Shown here piece by piece: positions 28,278-63,501 of a stretch of 64,000 bases of DNA (its first letter is position 1; the number at the start of each line of letters is the position of its first letter). The notes below the pieces were generated by a model. The model was given only the letters and a program-made list of their open reading frames with translations, had not been told where the DNA came from and did not search any database. This stretch comes from Trypanosoma brucei (taxonomy: Eukaryota). Location: positions 1,312,001-1,376,000 of the forward strand of contig CH464491.1 in NCBI GenBank assembly GCA_000002445.1, read 5' to 3'. The translations under genes and the position numbers were made by a program.

Positions 28278-29591
28278 ATGAATCGCATACTGTTTGCACT
28301 TGCCATCATCTTTTATTTACCGATTCCCCTCAGCGTCATCAAGGGGAGCTGTAAAGAAATTCCGACCCACCAGCAGCCACAGGCCCCTTACATACCAAAT
28401 ATTCAAAAGCAAACAAAAGAGGTATTGACACCATCGCAACAAGAAGATAAACAGAATTTTTCTCCAACGCTCCACAAAATAGAAAGTGCGCGGCAGTTCC
28501 ACTACGACGACTCAACAAATATCGACGGAAACAAAAGCATTCAGCATCAAACCGCAGTAACAGACGTCAATGACAATAACAGTGCCAACACTTCCAATGA
28601 GGATGAAGAGGAAGATGAAGATGAAGATGATACCGCAGTAACAGACGTCAATGACAATAACAGTGCCAACACTTCCAATGAGGATGAAGAGGAAGATGAA
28701 GATGAAGATGATACCGCAGTAACAGACGTCAATGACAATAACAGTGCCAACACTTCCAATGAGGATGAAGGGGAAGATGAAGATGAAGATGATACCGCAG
28801 TAACAGACGTCAATGACAATAACAGTGCCAACACTTCCAATGAGGATGAAGAGGAAGATGAAGATGAAGATGATACCGCAGTAACAGACGTCAATGACAA
28901 TAACAGTGCCAACACTTCCAATGAGGATGAAGAGGAAGATGAAGATGAAGATGATACCGCAGTAACAGACGTCAATGACAATAACAGTGCCAACACTTCC
29001 AATGAGGATGAAGAGGAAGATGAAGATGAAGATGATACCGCAGTAACAGACGTCAATGACAATAACAGTGCCAACACTTCCAATGAGGATGAAGGGGAAG
29101 ATGAAGATGAAGATGATACCGCAGTAACAGACGTCAATGACAATAACAGTGCCAACACTTCCAATGAGGATGAAGAGGAAGATGAGGATGAAGATGATAC
29201 CGCAGTAACAGACGTCAATGACAATAACAGTGCCAACACTTCCAATGAGGATGAAGAGGAAGATGAGGATGAAGATGATACCGCAGTAACAGACGTCAAT
29301 GACAATAACAGTGCCAACACTTCCAATGAGGATGAAGAGGAAGATGAGGATGAAGATGATACCGCAGTAACAGACGTCAATGACAATAACAGTGCCAACA
29401 CTTCCAATGAGGATGAAGGGAAAGAGGAACTGGAGTTTACCATTGCTCCTTCTCCTGTTTTTTTACCTCCTCCACCGGTAAGTGATGAAAATTCCACTCT
29501 TCTGGATGGGAATGATCTCTCCGTTGACAGGGGTAATTATTGTTCATTGCTATTTTCCTTCGTGTTTGTGTTTCTTACCTTTGTCGTCTAA
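28278..29591 (+). CDS. Secreted/GPI-type acidic tandem-repeat protein: 10.5 copies of the 27-aa unit TAVTDVNDNNSANTSNEDEEEDEDEDD
   Basis: ATG start. The N-terminal hydrophobic signal peptide is MNRILFALAIIFYLPIPLSVIKGSC. The central part is a perfect-to-near-perfect 81-bp tandem array. The C-terminal hydrophobic tail LLFSFVFVFLTFVV is typical of a GPI-anchor signal. Confidence 0.7.
   Translation: MNRILFALAIIFYLPIPLSVIKGSCKEIPTHQQPQAPYIPNIQKQTKEVLTPSQQEDKQNFSPTLHKIESARQFHYDDSTNIDGNKSIQHQTAVTDVNDNNSANTSNEDEEEDEDEDDTAVTDVNDNNSANTSNEDEEEDEDEDDTAVTDVNDNNSANTSNEDEGEDEDEDDTAVTDVNDNNSANTSNEDEEEDEDEDDTAVTDVNDNNSANTSNEDEEEDEDEDDTAVTDVNDNNSANTSNEDEEEDEDEDDTAVTDVNDNNSANTSNEDEGEDEDEDDTAVTDVNDNNSANTSNEDEEEDEDEDDTAVTDVNDNNSANTSNEDEEEDEDEDDTAVTDVNDNNSANTSNEDEEEDEDEDDTAVTDVNDNNSANTSNEDEGKEELEFTIAPSPVFLPPPPVSDENSTLLDGNDLSVDRGNYCSLLFSFVFVFLTFVV
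28551..29419 (+). repeat. 81-bp tandem repeat, 10 full copies plus one partial copy (coding repeats of the acidic protein)
   Basis: The unit accgcagtaacagacgtcaatgacaataacagtgccaacacttccaatgaggatgaagaggaagatgaagatgaagatgat recurs head-to-tail. Only a->g (E/G) and gaagat/gaggat variants distinguish copies. Confidence 0.95.
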
Positions 29592-29697: not shown

Positions 29698-30023
29698 CCT
29701 TAGCAGTGAATCTACGAAGTCCTCTTTCGCACATTCCACTGATGTGAACCACACCCTCTCGCACATAATTAGTTATTGATTTAATACTGCATATAAATCT
29801 ATTTTATATTTTTTAAATATTTACTGATGCTTTCTACCAGCCTTGAGGCGCATGCAGTCGCCCAAAAATAAGTGGACATCGCAGTAGATTTATTGTGGAG
29901 TGATATCAATAAGCTTGCGCGTGTGTATATGAGACCCGTTTCCTCTCTTCTTTTTAGTGGTGCTCCTATTTTCCTTGTTTTGGTGTTTGTTTTTTCGTGT
30001 GTGTGTGTGTGATGCTGTTGCAT
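29698..30023 (+). repeat. Copy 1 of a ~330-bp low-copy direct repeat (contains a (GT)n microsatellite)
   Basis: Near-identical to 31445..31784. It begins ccttagcagtgaatctacgaagtcctctttcgcacattccactgatgtgaaccacaccctctcgcacataattagttattg and ends ...gtgtgtgtgatgctgttgcat. Confidence 0.9.
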
Positions 30024-30240
30024 GTACGACGCCGCATATTATCCGTATTTTTTAGTTCGGTTTTTGCTCCTGTAGTTTTAATGGTATCGTAACGCTCTGT
30101 ATACATATTCCAAGTTATTCATGCTTATTAATTAAATTGTGTATCGTTTCTTTTTTTTAAAAAAAACCCTTTGTTCTTCTTGACGTTAGGCATATTATTG
30201 TTATAGTAGGGTATAGCCTTTACATTTTCGTCGTGTTAAA

Positions 30241-31059
30241 ATGTTTATCAGTGGGCTGTTCGTGTTGGCCGTGGCTCTGTGCTGCACGAACCCCACAGAT
30301 GGTTGCGACAGCAACTTCACATTGGCTCAAGTGCTGACGCTGTGTCAAATAACAGAACAGCTGAGGGGACTGAAGGAAGTTGTTATGAAAATTGGACCGC
30401 GAGCTGTTGAGGAAGCATTGTTTACTTTGAAGGCGAAGAAACGTAGTGAAGTATCTTTGAGGCGGGCAGAGGAGGCGGCGGAACGGGACCGCAACGCAGG
30501 TTTTGCGGCGGAACGGGCAAGGCTGGCGTATGATAGCGTTTGTGAGGCCGTTGAGTTTGCTGAGTATGCGGCGACAAGCATCGAGGGACGAGCGAGTTCC
30601 CTCCTAGTTATTCAGGAATATTATGTGCCATTCCTGGAAGATGTGATGCTCAGGGTTGGGACGGATGCGGAAGCTGCGGAAGCCCAAGAAGCCGCCATGT
30701 CATGTCTACAAACAAAAAGAAGTGTTTCACCAACGTCACTAAGTGAAGCGGCCTTGGAACTCCGGGTGAGATTAGGGGTCAGAAACTTTAGAGCGTTGAG
30801 GCGCGATCTCCACCGAGCGGCGTTTTGTCTCTATTCGTTGAAAAAGACGGCCGCGAAGATTGCGCTGGCCAGAAGTTCAGTAGAGGAAATAGAGTACCTC
30901 ATAAACGAAGCAGCAAATGAAGCAGAGTGCGTGTCTCCCCCCAAGGGAGGCATACAGGGACAGTTGCCATCGGATGAAAGTGATTCTTCAAATTTGGTCA
31001 CTGTGATTTCGGCCGTCCCGATATGTTGGTTATTGGCCACCATTACGCGTGTTTTGTAA
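30241..31059 (+). CDS. Ala/Glu-rich putative GPI-anchored surface protein (272 aa); GARP/BARP-like composition
   Basis: ATG start. Cleavable signal peptide MFISGLFVLAVALCCTNPTDGCDS. The mature region is Ala/Glu/Arg-rich and helical (RRAEEAAERDRNAGFAAERARLAYDSVCEAVEFAEYAATSIEG). The C-terminal hydrophobic tail AVPICWLLATITRVL is GPI-signal-like. Confidence 0.6.
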   Translation: MFISGLFVLAVALCCTNPTDGCDSNFTLAQVLTLCQITEQLRGLKEVVMKIGPRAVEEALFTLKAKKRSEVSLRRAEEAAERDRNAGFAAERARLAYDSVCEAVEFAEYAATSIEGRASSLLVIQEYYVPFLEDVMLRVGTDAEAAEAQEAAMSCLQTKRSVSPTSLSEAALELRVRLGVRNFRALRRDLHRAAFCLYSLKKTAAKIALARSSVEEIEYLINEAANEAECVSPPKGGIQGQLPSDESDSSNLVTVISAVPICWLLATITRVL

Positions 31060-31444
31060 CGATATGCCCTCACACGCATGCAGAGGGAATAAATCTGCAG
31101 GCGTAGCACCGTCCATGGTGCAGCGACTTGAGTATAAATGAAGTATGAGCGTGTTGTTTTACGTGCGTAACTTTATGTGAAAAATGTGCACGTGGGGCTG
31201 AGGCATGAATGCACGCATGTTTGCCTCGCGTTCACGCAGTAATGATAGTTTTCGACGTGTGTTGACGACACATTGCCCCTTACCTCCTTTTTTATTTTTT
31301 ATTTCACTTGTTAGCGTCATTACATTCGCAAAAACAGATGTGCAAAGTGTTTTTCATGTAAAATCTGTCTGCCTCCCCTTTACTGCCGTAGATACTGCAC
31401 GCTGTGCAATCGTGTTAACACGTGTATGTTCATTTAATTGCTCC

Positions 31445-31784
31445 CCTTAGCAGTGAATCTACGAAGTCCTCTTTCGCACATTCCACTGATGTGAACCACA
31501 CCCTCTCGCACATAATTAGTTATTGATTTAATACTGCATATAAATCTATTTTATATATATTTTAAATATTTACTGATGCTTTCTACCAGCCTTGAGGCGC
31601 ATGCAGTCGCCCAAAAATAAGTGGACATCGCAGTAGATTTATTGTGGAGTGATATCAATAAGCTTGCGCGTGTGTATATGAGACCCGTTTCCTCTCTTCT
31701 TTTTAGTGGTGCTCCTATTTTCCTTGTTTTGGTGTTTGTTTCTTCGTGTGTGTGTGTGTGTGTGTGTGTGTGATGCTGTTGCAT
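31445..31784 (+). repeat. Copy 2 of the ~330-bp direct repeat (longer (GT)n)
   Basis: Aligns base-for-base with 29698..30023 apart from tatattttt/tatatatattt, ttttt/tttct and the (GT) tract length. Sequences diverge immediately after gatgctgttgcat. Confidence 0.9.
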
Positions 31785-33036
31785 TTACTTGTGCCACCAC
31801 AAACTCCCCAGGCTTTTTTAACACTTATTTATTATAACTGTACCGTAAGGAAGGGGATATGGGCCCGCTGTGAAGCTGGTGCAAATGAGTTGGTTGGAAT
31901 GTAACAACGGATGGTCGGGGGAGGGGGCATATTGGATCCCTTCCTGGTCATCGCCAGCACAAACATCCGCCGAAACACCGCGGAAGAGCCATTGCTGAGG
32001 TAAATTAATCGGCGTGAGAAATGTCGTGGCTGCCAATGGGGCTCCATTGGTTTAAGAAGAAAAAAGAAAACACGGAGCGTCAGCTTCACAGAGCACTGTA
32101 AACAAACGCCTTAACCACCACCGGATCCCATGTTACGCTGCATCCATGCATTCTCAAGTGCTGGATGCGTTTGCGTTTGTATTTGTATGTGTGCGCTTCT
32201 CCTTGAAACAGTAAATATTTTACGCATTACATTTGACATTACGCATATTCCCTTTTCATATTCATTGAAAAAAGTGATGACAATATCTTTTATGCAAATA
32301 ATAATGAAATTCCACAACTATCGCTACCGCTTCAGTATTTTTCTTTCTCGTAACTGTTTCAACCTATTTTGTCATTGTATCCAAAAATATACATCACACG
32401 ATTCAGTACCACATCTTACAACATTTAATAGCATCTTCCTGCTTCCGGTTGCCGTTGTTCCCATTCACATTAATTTTATTCACAAACACTTACAAGCACC
32501 TTAACTTCTCTGTTGAAACATTCCCAATACAAAATGTTGTTTCCTTTTCATAAAAATAAAAATTATCAAGGGAAAACATAATAAGGGGTTAAAGTTATGA
32601 AATCAACTATTAATATATGATATAAACGATGGCTCAGTGTTTCCATCAACACGCGTATTCCTGCGACAAATGCTTTCCATATGTAATGTTAATCATCCTG
32701 AGCTTAATAATGGCAAAAAAAATAAATAAAATTAATCAATTCTGGCACAATGGTACGCACTCATTAGTTGTTTATGCTGATTGCACCTCAACTTTGATTC
32801 GGAGTGCACAACTCCATTGGCGTCAGGTTGGGCTGAAAGGACATTTACGACAACTTTTCCTTTCCGTATATTCCGTAACCTCTGTTTTATCATTATTATT
32901 CGTTATTCGTCACTTCTCTTGCCTCGTGCGCAGCTGGTGGAGGTGTGGCACCATTCAGCTCCGCAAAACGTGCAACAGTTAATGCCTTAACAATATTAAC
33001 GTCAAATTTGACGAGGTATTGTTTGACATCATTTTT

Positions 33037-35340
33037 CTAAAACACTTCAACATGCCTGTGGTTTTCATCATCTGCTTTACCATCTGTGAGATCACATCGC
33101 TGCTTGACTCTCATTGGAGTGGCGTCAGGGTGCTGAACATAAATCATTTCCCATCGATACTTCCCCATAACTGCTTTCCAATATTCATCACTTGGATTAG
33201 TGGTTGGATTTAAAAGTTTCTTCAGCATGCCAAGGAATGTTCCTGTCTTCGTATCATGCGATTCAGCAGTTGTGTACTGCAACATCACTATTGTCTTTTG
33301 TTTTCTCTGTTGTTTTTTATCCTCAGCAATTGCATCAGGGTCAACAACAAAGAAGGCATCCAAAACAGGGAAGTTAGGAAGCGCCTAGTATGCCTGAAAG
33401 AGACTTGGGGAACGTGTTATCATGCCACAACCGTCTGTAAAATCGGCAGCGTTGCCAAAGTTCAGGTATCTCTTCTGTACATGCCTCAAGACAGTGATAT
33501 TCTGCGCAACTTCCTGTTCCTCTACTCCCCTTTCGGGAAGTGGCTTGGTCATTTCGGTGATCGTACTCAACACTTTGGGAAATCCAAGTGCTTTTATAGC
33601 ATTGTACTCAAATAAAGCTGGAATTATCTCACGGGTAGGAATAAGCCCCGCCAACTGAGCTAAATTTTGAGCGGTTATTTCAGTTTCTCAATTATTCTCT
33701 TCTTTATGGATTCAGAGTGAGGTACGCATATGTATATCTCACCATTGTTTCTCCCACAGGCACGAACAATCTTCACGAGTTTGTGAGACGCGTCACTTTC
33801 CTTCCATTCGCCTTTGTTACCCACCACGCCAATATAGAGTTCACGTCGCTCATGGGATTTGATGGAATTTATTTCTTTGTCTATGTCGACCTCACGCGTG
33901 ACATACTTTGCTTCATCAAACACATAACGAAGTGAAGGTCCGACAAACTCCACACGGCTCTCATGCATCTCCCACTTTTCCCTCAACCCGACAGGTGTGG
34001 CTCCAGGATACAGCATGGGTCCAATACGTGAGAAGAAAGCCCGCATTTCAGTCATTTCCCAGCAGTTAACAAAGATACGTGTACATCTTTCCCTTTGCTG
34101 GAACCAGCTGTCAAAATTTCTCAAATTGGGTGAACTGATCAAAATGCTTCCCCATTTTGGAGCCACATCTGCCGGTGGCTGCTCGCCTTTGTTGACGAAG
34201 TCATAAATAACATAACCACGTGTATTAGATGATATAACCTTCATAAACGTTATAGCCGCTTCTTTACTGTACTCCCTAACTCTGCCAACGCCACCACCAC
34301 CAGATTTCTCAAATATATATGCGGCTACACCACGGAAGTACGCAACAACAGGCAACTCTTCCGCATCATAATGCAGTAAGTTGTAGAGTATGAAAGAACC
34401 CAAATTCTGAGATTTACCAATCCCAGGATTACCAATGGCAACGTATGATCGTGGAAAATAAAGACATCCCGGTAAAGCACGCTGTGTACGCCATAATTCA
34501 ACTCCACTCCTTACAACTTTCCATACGCGGAGCTCTTCTCTACGGGTGAATATTCTTTTGTTACTTCCGTCGGTAAACTTGGCTTATTATCACCCCATTT
34601 GAGATGTTAGAACCATTGCTTCAACTTCTTCCCTGCGTTCTGGTTTCTTCTCAACAGCTTCCTCAATTTCAGGGACAACATTAAGTTCTTCATCCTTCCA
34701 CATTACATTGCCACCACGCGTTCCATCAACAAACTCCATCCCGAGCAGTTGAGTTCCATTGTCAATTTCAATATGACTCCATTTCGCATTATAAACAGAG
34801 TCGTAAACTCCTGGAAGGTCAGCACCGTCAGCTAGTTAAATATATCGTTCCCCCGCCTTCCTGGCAATGCACCGTACCGTGTCCAACCTTGATGTCGCTG
34901 CGGAGCCAACTTGTTTCCTCATTTGGGCAGTTGCCTTCTCGCCCCACTGCCGCAGGGAGTAAATTCCATTACCGTTTAGATAGTTTATCCAACCTTGTAT
35001 TTCAGGCAACTGCTCACATATCCTTTATCGCTTAAACTGGAGGAGATTCTCTATGTCTTCAAGTAACTCGGCATCCCTAGTGTACCTTCCTGGGTTGGTA
35101 ACACACAAACTCATTGCTACATTCTTCATGTTGTTCGTGTTCAGAAAGAATTGCATCAGAAATTCGTGCAGGCTCATTTTAGCCAACGCCGCATAGTCTT
35201 CCAGAAGCACATCCTCAACCCTACTTTCCATCGTCCAGTTGGTGTCCCCTTCATTTCTCCACCACTTCTTTCTTTTTTTTCCTTGTACGGTCCCTTGGTC
35301 GTCCTTCCGAATTCACCCCACTTACGTTTCGTTCATACAT
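33037..35340 (-). pseudogene. RHS: Retrotransposon hot spot (RHS)-like pseudogene, fragmented by frameshifts/stops
   Basis: A series of minus-strand ORF fragments with coding character sits in different frames (35025..35231, 33675..34403, 33385..33654, 33037..33363). Walker-A P-loop reads AIGNPGIGKSQNLGSFIL across 34390-34450. The N-terminal basic stretch followed by NWTMESRVEDVLLEDYAALA resembles the RHS N-terminus as I recall it. It sits next to an ingi/L1Tc element. Confidence 0.55.
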
Positions 35341-36148
35341 GAAAAAGAGGTATCCGACACTGGCGGTTCAGGTTATCCATTGTGCTTTTCCACTAAATTA
35401 CACAGGATAAGATAGGGTGATGGTACATATTTGCTGAAGTGTAGTGATATCCATGCGCACACCCCGCGCTATCTTTGCAGGGGGTGCATCATATTCGGGC
35501 TTCGCCGCTCAGTGCAGGCACTTGGTGCCGTGGCCAGTTTTTGGTTGACCCGAAAATGGTTGTTGATGCAGCGCCGCATTAAAGTTTCTCCTTTGCTATG
35601 TGGCTGGATGGTGCGGCATCAGGAAAGCGTGCGGGCACGAGCGCCAGCACCAATGAGTTACGCAAGTCAGGTTACGCGCACTGGCTTATTTACCCCTAGC
35701 ATAAAAGTGTGGCGTGACAGAGTTACTAGTGAAAGCGACGATTTGCACCATATCTTGTAAATAGGCGATGGCCTGCGTATCTCAGAGGTGTGAAATGACT
35801 TCTATTCATGGATGTGCTGGTGGCCGCAAGCGTTGAAGCAACCTACTTCTACAGCTCTCATTCTTGTCCTACTCAAAAGACAGGACACCATCCGCTCATC
35901 GTCGAAGGCGTGGTGGAGTACGTCGCTTCCCTCGATCGTTTGTTCTTCGGTGGTGCCAGGGTCCAGTACCCCGTATCATCGGGGGAAGCCAAGAGCTACC
36001 AGTGTTACTCTCTTTTGGAACACTGCTTTGCTTAGACTACGGCATCGTACAGCACAGGGATCAGCAGCGTCTTGCTGGGACACCGTTTTTCGTTTGTCGG
36101 TCCCTGGGCACGTGCCAGCGTGCCATCAGCAGTATCATCCGCACTAAG

Positions 36149-39100
36149 ATGCTGCTGTCCGGTGATGTGGAAGAGAATCCCGGCCCATCATTGCGCGGGG
36201 TGCAGTGGAACTCCGCCGGGCTATCTCAAGGAAAGAGATTAGCACTCCACAAAACCCTTGTTGATGAGCGGATCGCCTTTTGTCTGTTGAGCGAGACAAG
36301 GATGAAACCTGGAGAGGCGGCTTGCTTTAGCGTTGCTGGCTACCAACATTACGGAATAGCTCGTAACTGCAAAGGAGGTCGTGTATCAATACTAGTGAGG
36401 GCGGACCTGCCAGTCGAGACCGGTATGGCCGTTGTTGGTCGCATTGAACAAGTGCATGCAACAATTCACCTTGCACGTGGAGCAGCGCTGACTGTCACGT
36501 CGGCATACATCCCACCAAAACACACCTTCACGGCAACTGACCTAGATACGCTTCTGACGACTGACGGTGCCCAGATCATCGGTGCAGACGCTAACGCACA
36601 CGCGTTGGCATGGGATCGCGCGAGCCCACCAAATACCAAGGGTGAAACCCTCACACAGTGGTGCATTGACAACCAGTTTCTGGTCTGCAACACTGGTGAG
36701 TGCACCAGGTACGCGCGCCACCAAGGGAAGTCCACCCCTGATGTGACACTGTCAAGGAATTGCACAGTGTACACGTGGACATCGCTGTATTCTCCCGATA
36801 GCGATCACCATCACATATTTTTCGACGTTATGGTTGGAGACGACACAGATGCACTGAGTTGCCCGCGGCTTCGAAAGCCCATGTGCGCATGGCTAAAAGC
36901 TGACTGGAGGAATTTCCGTCTCAAGGTTGACGAGTTCTGCAGGAAAATTGGTAGAGAGAAGAACGTCAACACCCTGGAACAGAAATTGAGCTCCGCCATC
37001 CGCATTGCGATGAAGGTCTCCGTCCCCCGTGGCTGCAGAGCAACGCCACCACATTGGACACCTGAGCTCGCGAAACTCGATGAAGAGATCACTGGATGCG
37101 GACCCTCCCACCGAAGGGAAAAGTTGGTAGCCACGCGTAAGCAGATCCTGGACCGTACCACAAAGAAGAGATGGAGCACACTATGCTCCAGACTTGCGGT
37201 GTCAGACCGCTGCAGTTGGCACATTGTCAAGAAGGTATATGCGCCACGACCACTAACCACACAGGCTGTACTTGTAGATAACGCGGCCATCACGGACTAC
37301 CGTCGAGCTGAGAGGTTCAATAAACTGTACTCGTCCCGCGCAAGAAGGCACCCCGACTCACACCCACCGGCACCAATAAAGACGATAGCGAGTGAGTTCA
37401 GTCCAATCACGATGGCTGAACTACGGAGATCGATCAAACTGCTACCGTGTGGATCCGCAGCCGGACCTGATTGCTTATACAACGAGGCGCTACAACATCT
37501 CGGTATAACAGCGCTGAATGTTGTTCTGAGGCTATTCAATGAGAGCCTACGAACGGGAGTCGTGCCACCTGCATGGAAGACTGGTGTTATCATCCCCATC
37601 CTGAAGGCCGGAAAAAAGGAGGAGGACCTCGATTCTTACAGGCCTGTGACGCCCACGAGCTGTCTCTGCAAAGTCATGGAACGCATAATTGCCGCAAGGT
37701 TTAGAGACACTGTTGAGTCCCAGCTGACGCCGCAGAAATCAGGCTTTCGCCCCGGATGCTCAACGCTCGAACAGCTGCTGCACGTCCGCGCTGCCCTCTG
37801 CCGTCCCACGCACCAATCACGTACGGGTGTTGTATTCGTCGACTACGAGAAGGCATTCGTTACTGTAGACCACGACAAAATTGCGAGGGAAATGCACAGA
37901 ATGAAGGTATCACCCCACATTGTGAAGTGGTGCGTATCATTTCTGAGTAACCGAACTGGCAGAGTGAGATTCAAGGAGAAGCTTTCCAGAAGCAGAACAT
38001 TTGAGCGAAGAGTGCCACAGGGAACTGCCCTTGGCCCAATCATGTTCATTATTGTCATGAACTCGTTGAGCCAGCGCCTTGCAGAAGTGCCGTTACTGCA
38101 GCACGGATTCTTTGCAGACGACCTAACGCTACTTGCGAGCCACACAGAGAGGGATGTCATCAACCACACACTACAATGCGGCCTAAACGTGGTGTTACAG
38201 TTGTCAAAAGACTACTTCATGTCTGTCAACGTAGCGAAAACAAAGTGCACACTCTTCGGGTGTATAGAGCGCCACCCCCTTACATTACAACTGGACGGCG
38301 AAAGAATAGGAGCTGACAGAACACCGAAGCTTTTAGGAGTAACATTCCAGTGTCTGCAAGGGATGGCAACACATGCGGCCGAAACGAGACGCAAGATGGA
38401 CTTCAGACTACTGCAGATAGCAGCCATCTCAGCTTCTACATGGGTACCAAGACGACAAGTGCTGAGAACTTTTTATCTAGCGCTCGTACAGGCACACACC
38501 ATGTATGGCATTGAGGTATGGTACTGGGACGCTTCGGAACGAAGTCGCGACCTCCTTGCATCAGCACAACACAAAGCCAGTCGCATCATAGCCGGCATAC
38601 CGCATGGGACGCGCAAAGAGGACTCTCTGCTGGAAGCAAACCTCCTGCCACTCAAGACGACCACTCTTGTGCGCAGCATGAAATTCATGCTGATGTGTGA
38701 GTCACGAGGCGGATGTTTGCGGCGCAGTGCTGAGGAAGTATACCACAGCAAACACCCAGTCAGAGTCTTACATTCCCGCATCATGCGGTCTTATCCCCAC
38801 CTCCGCATTGAGCCACGCGAGCACCCACTAGAGACATCGACGCTCCGCCACAGCTGCCGACCGCTATTTCACACGCAGATAAAGCCTGTGTGCGCTGATG
38901 ACCCTGACGATGTCAAAAGGGAGGCTTCCGAAAAGTGGATTGAACGGCATTTTGTACGGAGGGGGAAGGAGCTACCGCGGCGAGAGCACTACGAATTGTG
39001 GACTGATGGATCCGTGTCCCTCGGTGAGAAGTCCGGAGCAGCTGCCCTGCTCTATAGAAACAACACGCTGATTTGCGCACCCAAAACTGGAGCAGGGGAA

Positions 39101-39223
39101 CTCTCATGCAGTTACAGAGCGGAATGCGTAGCATTAGAGATAGGACTGCAACGGCTGCTGAAATGGCTTCCGGCATACAGAAGCACACCGAGCAGGTTGT
39201 CCATCTTCTCTGACTCGCTGTAA
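36149..39223 (+). CDS. Retroelement ORF segment: 2A peptide + AP endonuclease + reverse transcriptase + N-terminal half of RNase H (ends at in-frame TAA)
   Basis: The ATG at 36149 encodes MLLSGDVEENPGP. The track ORF 35864..39223 is the same frame read through flanking DNA. The stop TAA at 39221-39223 is in frame with the next segment. Confidence 0.85.
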   Translation: MLLSGDVEENPGPSLRGVQWNSAGLSQGKRLALHKTLVDERIAFCLLSETRMKPGEAACFSVAGYQHYGIARNCKGGRVSILVRADLPVETGMAVVGRIEQVHATIHLARGAALTVTSAYIPPKHTFTATDLDTLLTTDGAQIIGADANAHALAWDRASPPNTKGETLTQWCIDNQFLVCNTGECTRYARHQGKSTPDVTLSRNCTVYTWTSLYSPDSDHHHIFFDVMVGDDTDALSCPRLRKPMCAWLKADWRNFRLKVDEFCRKIGREKNVNTLEQKLSSAIRIAMKVSVPRGCRATPPHWTPELAKLDEEITGCGPSHRREKLVATRKQILDRTTKKRWSTLCSRLAVSDRCSWHIVKKVYAPRPLTTQAVLVDNAAITDYRRAERFNKLYSSRARRHPDSHPPAPIKTIASEFSPITMAELRRSIKLLPCGSAAGPDCLYNEALQHLGITALNVVLRLFNESLRTGVVPPAWKTGVIIPILKAGKKEEDLDSYRPVTPTSCLCKVMERIIAARFRDTVESQLTPQKSGFRPGCSTLEQLLHVRAALCRPTHQSRTGVVFVDYEKAFVTVDHDKIAREMHRMKVSPHIVKWCVSFLSNRTGRVRFKEKLSRSRTFERRVPQGTALGPIMFIIVMNSLSQRLAEVPLLQHGFFADDLTLLASHTERDVINHTLQCGLNVVLQLSKDYFMSVNVAKTKCTLFGCIERHPLTLQLDGERIGADRTPKLLGVTFQCLQGMATHAAETRRKMDFRLLQIAAISASTWVPRRQVLRTFYLALVQAHTMYGIEVWYWDASERSRDLLASAQHKASRIIAGIPHGTRKEDSLLEANLLPLKTTTLVRSMKFMLMCESRGGCLRRSAEEVYHSKHPVRVLHSRIMRSYPHLRIEPREHPLETSTLRHSCRPLFHTQIKPVCADDPDDVKREASEKWIERHFVRRGKELPRREHYELWTDGSVSLGEKSGAAALLYRNNTLICAPKTGAGELSCSYRAECVALEIGLQRLLKWLPAYRSTPSRLSIFSDSL

Positions 39224-39679
39224 ATGTTAACAGCACTGCAGACAGGCCCCCTAGCCGTAACGGACCCAATTCTGAGACGACTATGGAGGCTTCTGCTTCA
39301 AGTTCAGAGAAGGAAGGTGCGTATCCGACTGCAATTTGTGTTTGGCCATTGTGGCGTGAAACCGAATGAGGTTTGTGACGAAATGGCCAAAAAGGCCGCA
39401 GATTTACCACAGTTGCGAGACACATGGATCCCCGACATCATTGCTTATGCGAAGCGAGTGCTTAGGTCGGAAGAAGTCCATGAGAACACTCATAGGTTTG
39501 GTATCACGGGCAACCACTTTCCAACAAAACATAGGGAAGAACTGACGAGGGAAGAAGAAACGGCACTGGCACGCTTTCGGGTTGGGTCTTCAAGACACTA
39601 TGGATGGATGTTGCGAAAGATCAACCCGAGTGTAGTGTACCCTCACAGTGCCGATGGTGTAACCCGCAACATGCAGTGA
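39224..39679 (+). CDS. Retroelement ORF segment: C-terminal half of RNase H (same frame as upstream segment, separated only by a TAA nonsense codon)
   Basis: 39224 and 35864 are in the same reading frame. Contains the RNase H C-terminal motif HCGVKPNEVCDEMAKKAADL. Confidence 0.8.
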   Translation: MLTALQTGPLAVTDPILRRLWRLLLQVQRRKVRIRLQFVFGHCGVKPNEVCDEMAKKAADLPQLRDTWIPDIIAYAKRVLRSEEVHENTHRFGITGNHFPTKHREELTREEETALARFRVGSSRHYGWMLRKINPSVVYPHSADGVTRNMQ

Positions 39680-62247: not shown

Positions 62248-63501
62248 ATGAACTTTCCGGATAGTAGGGTACTTAGTGATGAGTTCCCCCGCCGGAAATA
62301 CAAACCATCATCTGCGACCCGGTTGGAAGATATAGTTCTGAAGGGGCTTCACTATGGGCAACGTAAGTTGCTCTTGTCTGAGATTGAATTTCTTTCGGCA
62401 TATTTGGAAGGCAGGCAGGCTGGGGCGAAGCCCACGCTAGTGGTTTATGCGGGTGCGGCGAACGGCTCACATCTTCCCTTCCTCTTTCAGCTTTTTGAAG
62501 CGGTAAAGTTTGTTCTTATCGATCCTGCCCCATTCTGTGATGCTGTGCGGGAAATTTCACTGAATAAGCAAGGACCCATTTTGGATCTAGTGCAAGGATT
62601 CTGCACCGATGAGTTGTGCAAGCAGCTCTCTAGCTCCTACGGTTCAACCTATGATATTCTTCTTGTTAGCGATATTCGTTCGGGGGTACCAGAGAAGCAG
62701 TCGAATCGGGAGAATACGCTGATGATCATGCGTGATAACGATATGCAGCGAAGTTGGTGCTGGACGCTAAAGGCAGAGGCGGCTCTGCTGAAGTTTCACC
62801 CACCTTATCCACCTTGCCGTGATAGAAACTCACGGCACTACGATGAGGCGGATGACACGCCTGAAAGCATAGAGTATTTGGATGGAGTTCGCCTGTTTGG
62901 AGTGTGGGCACCCAAATCGTCTTCCGAGTTGCGGTTGTGCGTGCAAGGGCCGTTCCTCCAGGGGACTAGTTTCCCGATGCGCCGATATGACTGCACTACG
63001 CATGAGGAACAGTGTTATTTTTATAATACAGACAACCGGTACACGCGTGACTGTGCTGCTGAGAGTGGGATATTGGAACGATACCTTCAATTGTTTCCCT
63101 CCGCGCCCTATAGCGACCCCACGGCCCTATCAATGACGATTAGTAATTTTCTCGGGTTTCCTCTTTTTCTCCCACTCGACTCGTCGTTTAGCGAGAGTGA
63201 CGCTCGCTGGGTAACTTTGTTATACTCCACGCGGATCCCTACCTGCTTGGAATTGTTCACCACCCTGCGCGGAAGGGTGACGCATACCGTCATGAAGCAA
63301 CTTGCTGAGGAATGGCAGAGCGCAACCACCGTTCCGAAGGGGGTCAGTATTGATTCCGTTGAGCTAACTTCTGAGTTCTGGAAGGCAGTTTGCGCTGGTG
63401 ACCTTACTGAGGCGTACAGCTTTCCTAACATTCGCTGGCGTTTCGCCAATCTACTTATCTCGAGAAGAAGGAAGAGGTCAGCCTCTGATCGTGCACCGTG
63501 A
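62248..63501 (+). CDS. MTR2: Vaccinia VP39-like mRNA cap 2'-O-ribose methyltransferase (kinetoplastid cap-4 MTr2/MTr3 family)
   Basis: ATG start, 417 aa. TLVVYAGAANGSHLPFLFQLF...FVLIDPAPF parallels VP39 VVYIGSAPGTHIRYLRDHF...WMLIDGR (SAM-binding). DILLVSDIRS parallels VP39 ILISDVRSK (part of the K-D-K-E set). Symbol from recollection that T. brucei MTr2 is encoded in the same chromosome-11 neighbourhood as PGFS. Confidence 0.75.
   Translation: MNFPDSRVLSDEFPRRKYKPSSATRLEDIVLKGLHYGQRKLLLSEIEFLSAYLEGRQAGAKPTLVVYAGAANGSHLPFLFQLFEAVKFVLIDPAPFCDAVREISLNKQGPILDLVQGFCTDELCKQLSSSYGSTYDILLVSDIRSGVPEKQSNRENTLMIMRDNDMQRSWCWTLKAEAALLKFHPPYPPCRDRNSRHYDEADDTPESIEYLDGVRLFGVWAPKSSSELRLCVQGPFLQGTSFPMRRYDCTTHEEQCYFYNTDNRYTRDCAAESGILERYLQLFPSAPYSDPTALSMTISNFLGFPLFLPLDSSFSESDARWVTLLYSTRIPTCLELFTTLRGRVTHTVMKQLAEEWQSATTVPKGVSIDSVELTSEFWKAVCAGDLTEAYSFPNIRWRFANLLISRRRKRSASDRAP

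What the first reader, a model, noticed from the sequence alone, without database searches (positions are those of the whole stretch)
29698..31784. A ~330-bp direct repeat pair precisely brackets the Ala/Glu-rich surface-protein gene
29698..30023 and 31445..31784 are >97% identical, differing only by tiny indels and (GT)n length. They lie in the same orientation 1.75 kb apart, with the 272-aa signal-peptide/GPI gene between them. The repeats end abruptly at gatgctgttgcat, after which flanks are unrelated. This arrangement is what is expected for a unit of a tandem gene array reduced to one copy, or for a cassette that moves by homologous recombination or circle excision. The repeats also supply identical 5' and 3' processing signals. 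Spurious minus-strand ORFs 29799..30023 and 31551..31784 are simply reflections of this repeat.
Basis: seen in the sequence. Interest (0 to 1): 0.55.

Follow-up and report, generated by a model that had tools for sequence, protein, structure and literature searches.

The report
Duplicated flank around trypanosome surface gene
A ~330-bp stretch of non-coding DNA sits on both sides of one Trypanosoma brucei surface-protein gene; the repeat is real and the two copies still exchange sequence, but it is an ordinary local duplication with no sign that the gene moves or is amplified.

Summary
The repeat is confirmed. Window 29698-30023 and 31445-31784 are direct copies 1747-1749 bp apart. They differ by two substitutions, a 2-bp indel and 12 bp of (GT)n. 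There are no other copies in the 64 kb. The window is T. brucei TREU927 chromosome 11. The bracketed gene is Tb927.11.4760 (Tb11.02.2370), the single-copy 'subfamily i' member of the GARP/BARP family Fam50, and it is the last gene of its Pol II transcription unit. The same repeat-gene-repeat layout, with identical junctions, occurs in T. b. gambiense and T. equiperdum. At two to four sites both copies share a strain-specific base, which indicates gene conversion or unequal exchange. Published mapping puts the gene's trans-splice site at 30190, outside the left copy, and its mRNA 3' end at 31718, inside the right copy. Each copy therefore lies 3' of a gene: the left copy follows the acidic-repeat GPI gene Tb927.11.4750. 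These two genes are regulated in opposite directions in tsetse, so the repeat does not co-regulate them. I found no second gene copy or remnant. Published read depth in a laboratory strain gives 1.1 copies. The array-remnant and mobile-cassette readings remain possible but unsupported. Genome-wide copy number of the repeat could not be tested. This is an ordinary feature of low interest.

The parts
29698..30023 (+). R-left: left copy of the direct repeat (326 bp; weak similarity from 29681 and up to 30027). It starts 107 nt after the stop codon of the upstream gene Tb927.11.4750.
   Evidence: Orthologous copies in T. equiperdum and T. b. gambiense.
31445..31784 (+). R-right: right copy of the direct repeat (340 bp; weak similarity from 31428 and up to 31788). 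It starts 386 nt after the stop codon of Tb927.11.4760.
29997..30011 (+). (GT)n microsatellite, 15 nt, at the 3' edge of R-left.
31746..31772 (+). (GT)13.5 microsatellite at the 3' edge of R-right. Its length varies from 15 to 29 nt among the six copies in three genomes.
29939..29957 (+). Polypyrimidine tract TTTCCTCTCTTCTTTTT followed by AG, inside R-left. It is a potential RNA-processing signal, but it is not the mapped splice site of Tb927.11.4760.
   Evidence: motif scan; mapped site is at 30190.
31688..31706 (+). The same polypyrimidine tract plus AG inside R-right. The mapped mRNA 3' end of Tb927.11.4760 (31718) lies 12 nt downstream of this AG.
   Evidence: Kolev 2010 Table S3: 3' end 1343718 = window 31718.
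30024..30240 (+). Unique 5' flank of the gene. It holds the mapped trans-splice acceptor (AG 30188-30189, transcript 5' end 30190), giving a 5' UTR of about 51 nt.
   Evidence: Kolev 2010 Table S3: 5' end 1342190; the chromosome offset of +1,312,000 is fixed by ORF coordinates 1342241-1343059.
30241..31059 (+). Tb927.11.4760 (= Tb11.02.2370). It encodes a 272-aa Fam50 'subfamily i' GARP/BARP-like protein with hydrophobic N- and C-terminal ends (predicted signal peptide and GPI signal). It is the last ORF of its Pol II transcription unit.
   Evidence: Pfam GARP at E = 1.6e-56. Jackson 2013. Kolev 2010 Tables S3 and S14. Fadda 2014: CDS of 819 nt.
31060..31444 (+). Unique proximal part of the 3' UTR and flank. 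A strong internal polypyrimidine tract (31283-31305) followed by AG at 31313 is a candidate for the 'alt 3'UTR' processing site reported for this gene. That assignment is an inference.
   Evidence: Kolev 2010 Table S3 flag 'alt 3UTR'.
28278..29591 (+). Upstream neighbour Tb927.11.4750 (= Tb11.02.2360). It encodes a predicted GPI-anchored protein with a 27-aa acidic repeat (81-bp array at 28551-29429). R-left lies in its downstream region.

Best explanation
R is a ~330-bp piece of 3'-flanking (3'-UTR and intergenic) DNA present twice in direct orientation on T. brucei chromosome 11. One copy lies downstream of the acidic-repeat GPI gene Tb927.11.4750. The other lies downstream of the Fam50 (GARP/BARP-like) gene Tb927.11.4760. 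Formally the structure is a 1.2-copy tandem repeat whose 1.75-kb unit is R plus the gene.

Shown here: the duplication predates the split of T. b. brucei TREU927, T. b. gambiense and T. equiperdum, because the junctions are identical in all three. Since that split the two copies have exchanged sequence, by gene conversion or unequal sister-chromatid exchange, and this keeps them about 99% alike.

Shown by published mapping: the Tb927.11.4760 mRNA is trans-spliced at a site outside R-left and ends inside R-right.

Inferred: each copy serves as the distal 3' UTR and poly(A) region of the gene on its 5' side. R-right gives the last gene of the polycistron a 3'-end formation region. R is not a shared expression switch, and the pair is a by-product of local duplication rather than a mobility device. 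The pair does make the gene liable to deletion or duplication by homologous recombination.
For: Repeat and boundaries. Same layout with identical junctions in DAL972 and T. equiperdum.

Concerted evolution: at alignment columns 79 and 172 (window 29736/31483 and 29827/31576) both TREU927 copies carry one base and all four copies in the other two genomes carry another. Two more such sites flank the (GT)n tract (columns 344 and 374). The expected number of coincident identical substitutions without exchange is 0.04, giving P(>=2) of about 7e-4. Copy-specific variants shared by the orthologues (columns 201 and 267) show that the copies are distinct loci and not collapsed in assembly.

RNA ends: Kolev 2010 Table S3 gives the 5' end at 1342190 (window 30190, directly after an AG) and the 3' end at 1343718 (window 31718, inside R-right), flagged 'alt 3UTR'. 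The gene is the last ORF of its Pol II unit; the next unit starts at Tb11.02.2390 (Table S14).

Recombination competence: T. brucei homologous recombination rises linearly from 50 to 200 bp of homology and plateaus near 200 bp (Barnes and McCulloch 2007), so 326 bp at about 99% identity is a competent substrate. Gene conversion often affects UTRs in T. brucei arrays, and terminal flanks of arrays are curtailed copies of the internal spacers (Jackson 2007).

No other role found: no Rfam match and no unusual RNA fold (z = -0.81).
Against: The reads that place the 3' end at 31718 cannot tell R-right from R-left, because the sequence is identical for more than 100 nt upstream. The mapping could therefore partly reflect the poly(A) site of Tb927.11.4750. 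No mapped 3' end for Tb927.11.4750 could be retrieved, so 'R-left is its 3' UTR' is inference by homology and position only. Only three genomes were available, and two of them are nearly identical here. Two of the four concerted sites abut a microsatellite and are less reliable. Overall paralogue distance (0.95-1.3%) is only slightly below orthologue distance (0.96-1.6%). The order of events that made a 1.2-unit repeat is not resolved. The copy number of R in the rest of the genome is unknown.
Confidence: 0.6

Rival explanations
1. Array remnant or poised array. R-gene-R is what is left of a tandem array of (gene + R) units, or is a state that repeatedly expands and contracts by unequal crossing-over between R copies.
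For: The 1.2-unit geometry. Exchange between the copies could equally come from cycles of unequal crossing-over. Other Fam50 subfamilies (BARP, MISP, GARP) are tandem arrays, and T. brucei arrays evolve by unequal crossing-over (Jackson 2007).
Against: No second copy and no degenerate remnant of the gene or its flanks lie downstream of R-right: tblastn and blastn find nothing, and the local-alignment z score of 2.5 is matched by unrelated controls at z = 3.0. The gene is single-copy in three assemblies, at read depth 1.1 in a laboratory strain, and is described as a single-copy locus in T. brucei and T. congolense. Collapse of a simple integer-copy array does not leave flanking repeats.
Confidence: 0.22
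2. Mobile or amplifiable cassette. Recombination between the two R copies pops the gene out as a 1.75-kb circle that can be lost, amplified or re-integrated, as in repeat-driven extrachromosomal amplification in Leishmania.
For: Direct repeats of sufficient length and identity for RAD51-type recombination. The Leishmania precedent (Ubeda 2014, PMC4028189).
Against: The locus and junctions are fixed in three subspecies. Copy number is about 1. There is no empty site or second insertion site in any sequence examined. No circles were tested. From my own knowledge, such amplicons are not a general feature of T. brucei.
Confidence: 0.07
3. Shared regulatory 3' UTR. R was duplicated and kept identical because it gives the same stage-specific mRNA control to two neighbouring surface-protein genes.
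For: Both copies lie 3' of genes for predicted GPI-anchored surface proteins. The mapped 3' end of Tb927.11.4760 is inside R. The copies are kept alike.
Against: The two genes behave oppositely in tsetse. Tb927.11.4750 rises from 37.8 to 126.2 to 616.8 RPKM (midgut, proventriculus, salivary gland). Tb927.11.4760 falls from 153.1 to 99.0 to 34.8 RPKM (2.84-fold down from proventriculus to salivary gland, P = 0.0166) (Savage 2016). R has no significant RNA structure and no Rfam match.
Confidence: 0.06
4. Generic dispersed repeat. R is one of many copies of a genome-wide element, for example sequence associated with RHS or ingi clusters, and its position around this gene is coincidental.
For: R-right is followed about 1.9 kb downstream by an RHS pseudogene and an ingi element. 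Genome-wide copy number could not be tested.
Against: Only two copies occur in 64 kb, and none lies next to the ingi or RHS sequences themselves. R has no retroposon hallmarks: no poly(A) tail, no short target-site duplications and no spliced-leader remnant. Proteins predicted from R-derived ORFs do not occur in the 5.8-billion-protein collection.
Confidence: 0.05

Closest known systems
Duplicated intergenic spacers and UTRs of T. brucei tandem gene arrays, homogenised by gene conversion or unequal crossing-over (Jackson 2007, BMC Evol Biol 7:54, PMC1855330)
   Same: Direct repeats of non-coding flank on either side of a coding unit in a polycistron. The copies are nearly identical and show within-genome homogenisation. 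Repetitive tracts vary in length. The homology is cut off sharply at the ends.
   Different: Only one gene copy is present, so there is 1.2 units rather than 2 or more. The left copy of the spacer lies behind an unrelated gene (Tb927.11.4750), so two different genes share a downstream segment.
Repeat-mediated circular amplicons in Leishmania (Ubeda et al. 2014, PLoS Biol 12:e1001868, PMC4028189)
   Same: In a trypanosomatid, short direct repeats bracketing genes are substrates for homologous recombination that can excise or amplify the intervening DNA.
   Different: No amplification, circle or copy-number change was seen or tested here. R is not shown to belong to a genome-wide repeat family as the Leishmania repeats do. 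The species and its genome dynamics are different.
Fam50 (GARP/BARP/CESP/MISP) surface-protein loci of African trypanosomes (Jackson 2013, PMC3605285; Casas-Sanchez 2023, PMC10089363)
   Same: The bracketed gene is the Fam50 'subfamily i' member on chromosome 11, sister to BARP/GARP. It encodes a predicted GPI-anchored, Ala/Glu-rich protein.
   Different: BARP, GARP and MISP are multi-copy tandem arrays up-regulated in epimastigote or salivary-gland stages. This member is single-copy, and its mRNA falls from midgut to salivary gland (Savage 2016).

Membership tests
Fam50 / Pfam PF16731 GARP (for the bracketed gene) | Significant match to the GARP family profile above the curated threshold | tested here: met
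   191.3 bits against a cut-off of 27.4, E = 1.6e-56, residues 29-216 covering profile positions 2-190 of 193. Jackson 2013 lists Tb11.02.2370 as Fam50 subfamily 'i'.
Fam50 / Pfam PF16731 GARP (for the bracketed gene) | N-terminal signal peptide and C-terminal GPI-addition signal | tested here: inconclusive
   Hydrophobic N-terminus (MFISGLFVLAVALCC) and hydrophobic C-terminal tail (VISAVPICWLLATITRVL) are visible in the translation. SignalP is positive in Savage 2016 Table S1. No GPI predictor was run.
Fam50 / Pfam PF16731 GARP (for the bracketed gene) | Three-helix-bundle fold as in solved GARP, HpHbR and MISP structures | not tested
   No PDB chain matches by sequence at E <= 0.01. No structure was predicted.
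Tandem gene array (T. brucei sense, Jackson 2007) | Two or more head-to-tail copies of the coding unit | tested here: not met
   One copy in the window and in two other assemblies. Copy number 1.1 by read depth.
Tandem gene array (T. brucei sense, Jackson 2007) | Repeated, homogenised intergenic spacer flanking the unit | tested here: met
   R-left and R-right are about 99% identical, with strain-specific bases shared by both copies.
Repeat-bounded amplifiable or excisable cassette (Leishmania type) | Direct repeats long and similar enough for homologous recombination | tested here: met
   326-340 bp at about 99% identity. T. brucei recombination efficiency plateaus at about 200 bp of homology.
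Repeat-bounded amplifiable or excisable cassette (Leishmania type) | Observed copy-number change, circular product or empty site | tested here: not met
   The layout is identical in three genomes and read depth is 1.1. Circles cannot be tested with these tools.
Dispersed repeat or retroposon-derived element | Many copies in unrelated genomic contexts | not testable with these tools
   No T. brucei genome is searchable here. Only two copies occur in the 64-kb window. An exact-match scan of metagenome contigs found none.
Dispersed repeat or retroposon-derived element | Retroposition hallmarks (poly(A) tail, short target-site duplications, spliced-leader remnant) | tested here: not met
   None are visible at the R or cassette boundaries. 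Spliced-leader matches in the window are at chance level.

The most novel reading that the evidence does not exclude
The R-gene-R arrangement is a recombination-poised cassette. In natural T. brucei populations or in particular life-cycle stages, it would let the last gene of a polycistron, an insect-stage Fam50 surface protein, be reversibly deleted, tandemly amplified or released as a 1.75-kb circle. This would be a T. brucei counterpart of repeat-driven gene amplification in Leishmania.
Probability: 0.07. Interest if true: 0.55.

Novelty: new member of a known kind. Interest (0 to 1): 0.2.

Why it matters
The main value is for annotation and technique. Short reads from the two copies cannot be assigned to one of them, so the UTR models and poly(A) sites of Tb927.11.4750 and Tb927.11.4760 are ambiguous. 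Any knock-out or tagging construct that targets these flanks can recombine at the wrong copy or loop the gene out. The pair is also a small, clean example of concerted evolution of non-coding flanks in a trypanosome. In addition, it shows two oppositely regulated surface-protein genes sharing most of a downstream segment, which argues that this segment does not set stage specificity. If the cassette reading were true, it would extend repeat-driven copy-number plasticity from Leishmania to T. brucei.

Tried and rejected
1. Retroposed gene copy. There is no spliced-leader remnant or poly(A) tail at the cassette ends; spliced-leader matches in the window are at chance level.

2. Degenerate second gene copy beyond R-right. 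tblastn and blastn found nothing. A weak similarity between 30089-30196 and 32132-32249 (z = 2.5) was matched by an unrelated control region (z = 3.0), so it is noise. Homology does not extend left into the end of Tb927.11.4750 (52 of 500 shuffles score as well).

3. Structured or known RNA in R. There is no Rfam hit (the only row is mir-67 at E = 0.38, which is noise). The fold z score is -0.81.

4. Genome-wide copy number. An exact 43-mer scan of metagenome contigs gave 0 hits. A protein search with the R-derived 77-aa ORF found nothing.

5. Outgroup synteny. The T. vivax (L004) and T. theileri (L006) loci are syntenic up to the 514-aa gene but then carry other genes, with no Fam50 gene and no repeat. 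The T. congolense orthologous contig was not on record. A fourth T. brucei-group assembly (T. equiperdum OVI, L009) breaks at the 81-bp array and lacks the region.

6. Co-regulation by a shared 3' UTR. Rejected because the two genes have opposite expression trends.

7. Assembly artefact. Rejected because three assemblies show the same layout with copy-specific variants.
Full report
OBSERVATION

The two segments are real. Weaker similarity extends 17 nt further left (29681/31428) and 4 nt further right.

The copies are in the same orientation, 1747-1749 bp apart start to start. They differ by a TA indel, two substitutions (31559 and 31742) and 12 extra bp of (GT)n in the right copy. blastn gives 99.05% identity over 316 bp.

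Across the whole 64-kb window the only direct repeats of 60 nt or more are this pair and an 81-bp coding array. A sensitive blastn finds only (GT)n-type noise elsewhere. The minus-strand ORFs at 29799..30023 and 31551..31784 exist and are reflections of the repeat.

WHERE THIS IS

The window is Trypanosoma brucei brucei TREU927 chromosome 11, Tb927_11_01_v4:1312001-1376000. Kolev et al. 2010 (PMC2936537, Table S3) list Tb11.02.2370 with its ORF at 1342241-1343059. That is exactly window 30241-31059 plus 1,312,000, and a second gene (Tb11.02.2500, 1374248-1375501 = window 62248-63501) fits the same offset.

The bracketed 272-aa ORF matches Pfam GARP (PF16731) at E = 1.6e-56. Jackson et al. 2013 (PMC3605285) describe Tb11.02.2370/TcIL3000.11.4860 as a single-copy chromosome 11 locus, Fam50 subfamily 'i', sister to BARP/GARP. 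Its current identifier is Tb927.11.4760, with an 819-nt CDS (Fadda 2014).

The upstream ORF at 28278-29591 is Tb11.02.2360 (Tb927.11.4750). It encodes a predicted GPI protein with 11 copies of TAVTDVNDNNSANTSNEDE... (PMC2254594). Downstream lie an RHS pseudogene on the minus strand (33675-35231) and an ingi retrotransposon (35864-39679). Kolev Table S14 makes Tb11.02.2370 the last ORF of a Pol II unit (Tb11.02.2030 to Tb11.02.2370). A new 'Internal' unit starts at Tb11.02.2390.

COMPARATIVE EVIDENCE

The repeat-gene-repeat layout, with the same junctions, is present in T. b. gambiense DAL972 (L002) and T. equiperdum (L001/L003). The duplication is therefore older than the divergence of these lineages and is not an assembly artefact.

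In a six-copy alignment, both TREU927 copies carry one base and all four copies in the other genomes carry another at two clean sites: 29736/31483 (C against T) and 29827/31576 (A against C). Two further sites at the edges of the (GT)n tract show the same pattern. Two other sites are copy-specific and shared by the orthologues (columns 201 and 267).

Without exchange between the copies, about 0.04 coincident identical substitutions are expected, and P(>=2) is about 7e-4. The copies therefore evolve in concert, by gene conversion or unequal exchange. Jackson 2007 (PMC1855330) describes the same behaviour for UTRs and spacers of T. brucei arrays. The distance signal is modest: paralogues differ by 0.95-1.3% and orthologues by 0.96-1.6%. 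Only three genomes could be used.

At 326-340 bp and about 99% identity, the pair is well above the length at which T. brucei homologous recombination plateaus, about 200 bp (Barnes and McCulloch 2007, PMC1904282).

Outgroups did not help. T. vivax and T. theileri are syntenic up to the 514-aa gene and then differ, with no Fam50 gene and no repeat. The T. congolense contig was not retrievable.

WHAT THE REPEAT DOES IN RNA TERMS

[quoted passage not shown] This is the base directly after AG 30188-89 and behind a pyrimidine-rich stretch. The site lies in the unique 5' flank, 167 nt beyond the end of R-left, so R-left does not supply the gene's mapped splice site.

The mapped 3' end, 1343718, is window 31718. 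It lies inside R-right, 12 nt after a TTTCCTCTCTTCTTTTT-AG motif (31688-31706) that is also present in R-left (29939-29957). The gene is flagged 'alt 3UTR', meaning spliced-leader and poly(A) reads were found inside the UTR. A strong polypyrimidine tract with AG at 31283-31314 is a candidate for that site; this is my inference.

By position and homology, R-left should be the distal 3' UTR and poly(A) region of Tb927.11.4750. It starts 107 nt after that gene's stop codon, and the equivalent 3'-end site would be 29969. No mapped 3' end for that gene could be retrieved. There is also a caveat: reads ending at 31718 are identical to reads ending at 29969, so the published assignment cannot separate the two copies.

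R has no Rfam match and no unusual RNA fold (z = -0.81).

IS R A SHARED REGULATOR?

Probably not. In tsetse-derived parasites (Savage 2016, PMC5176191; column headers verified), Tb927.11.4750 rises from 37.8 to 126.2 to 616.8 RPKM across midgut, proventriculus and salivary gland. It appears in the salivary-gland top-200 list. Tb927.11.4760 falls from 153.1 to 99.0 to 34.8 RPKM, which is 2.84-fold down from proventriculus to salivary gland (P = 0.0166). In culture forms Tb927.11.4760 is present at about 0.7-1.3 mRNAs per cell.

ARRAY REMNANT OR CASSETTE?

No second copy or remnant of the gene or its unique flanks exists in the window. The gene is single-copy in three assemblies. Fadda 2014 estimated 1.1 copies from shotgun read depth in their laboratory strain.

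A simple tandem duplication gives an integer number of units, and its collapse restores the original sequence without flanking repeats. The observed 1.2 units therefore need an extra step. That step could be partial deletion of a second unit, an R-to-R exchange, or a dispersed copy of R. The data do not say which.

The pair does make the gene liable to loop-out or duplication by recombination, as with the direct repeats that drive circular amplicons in Leishmania (Ubeda 2014, PMC4028189). Nothing here shows that this happens.

VERDICT

The best reading (confidence about 0.6) is a locus-specific duplication of 3'-flanking DNA that is kept homogeneous by recombination. Each copy lies behind a different predicted surface-protein gene at the end of a polycistron. 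This is a new instance of a well-known kind of feature in T. brucei and is of low general interest (0.2). Its main practical consequences are for read mapping, UTR annotation and gene targeting at Tb927.11.4750 and Tb927.11.4760. The key open test is the genome-wide and population-wide copy number of R and of the 30024-31444 segment.

Noticed in passing
window 28551-29429 (within ORF 28278-29591); L002 12692-14417; L001 8863-9170: The 81-bp (27-aa, acidic) coding repeat of Tb927.11.4750 differs greatly in copy number: 10.9 units in TREU927, about 21 units (a mix of 81-bp and 63-bp units) in T. b. gambiense, and 3.8 in T. equiperdum. The last figure may reflect assembly collapse; another T. equiperdum assembly breaks at the array. 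This gene is about 16-fold higher in salivary-gland than in midgut parasites (Savage 2016).
   Followed up: partly
L002 15248-16066 (T. b. gambiense DAL972): The Fam50 gene is intact in DAL972 (7 nucleotide and 2 amino-acid differences from TREU927: T33A and N226H). It is not among the genes called at that locus in the collection, so it appears to be unannotated there.
   Followed up: partly
window 33675-35231 (-) and 35864-39679 (+): An RHS pseudogene (Pfam RHSP and DUF7578, broken by stops) and an ingi-type non-LTR retrotransposon (endonuclease, reverse transcriptase and RNase H domains) fill the gap between two same-strand Pol II transcription units. The ingi ORF begins with a 2A-like DVEENPGP motif.
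   Followed up: partly
window 29997-30011 and 31746-31772; equivalents in L001 and L002: The (GT)n tract at the 3' edge of each repeat copy varies from 15 to 29 nt among the six copies in three genomes. Homology ends only 12 nt beyond it, so the microsatellite may mark the recombination or duplication breakpoint.
   Followed up: partly
window 31060-31718: Kolev 2010 flags the 3' UTR of Tb11.02.2370 as alternatively processed, with spliced-leader and poly(A) reads inside the UTR. A polypyrimidine tract with AG at 31283-31314 could generate a separate UTR-derived transcript of about 400 nt made largely of R-right.
   Followed up: no
L004 11527-17029 (T. vivax) and L006 11542-17605 (T. theileri): Synteny with T. 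brucei holds from the DNA polymerase and aldo-keto reductase genes up to the 514-aa gene and then breaks. T. vivax has a multi-pass membrane protein followed by a strand switch. T. theileri has amidohydrolase and glycosyl-hydrolase genes. The Tb927.11.4750/4760 pair therefore sits at a lineage-specific synteny break.
   Followed up: partly
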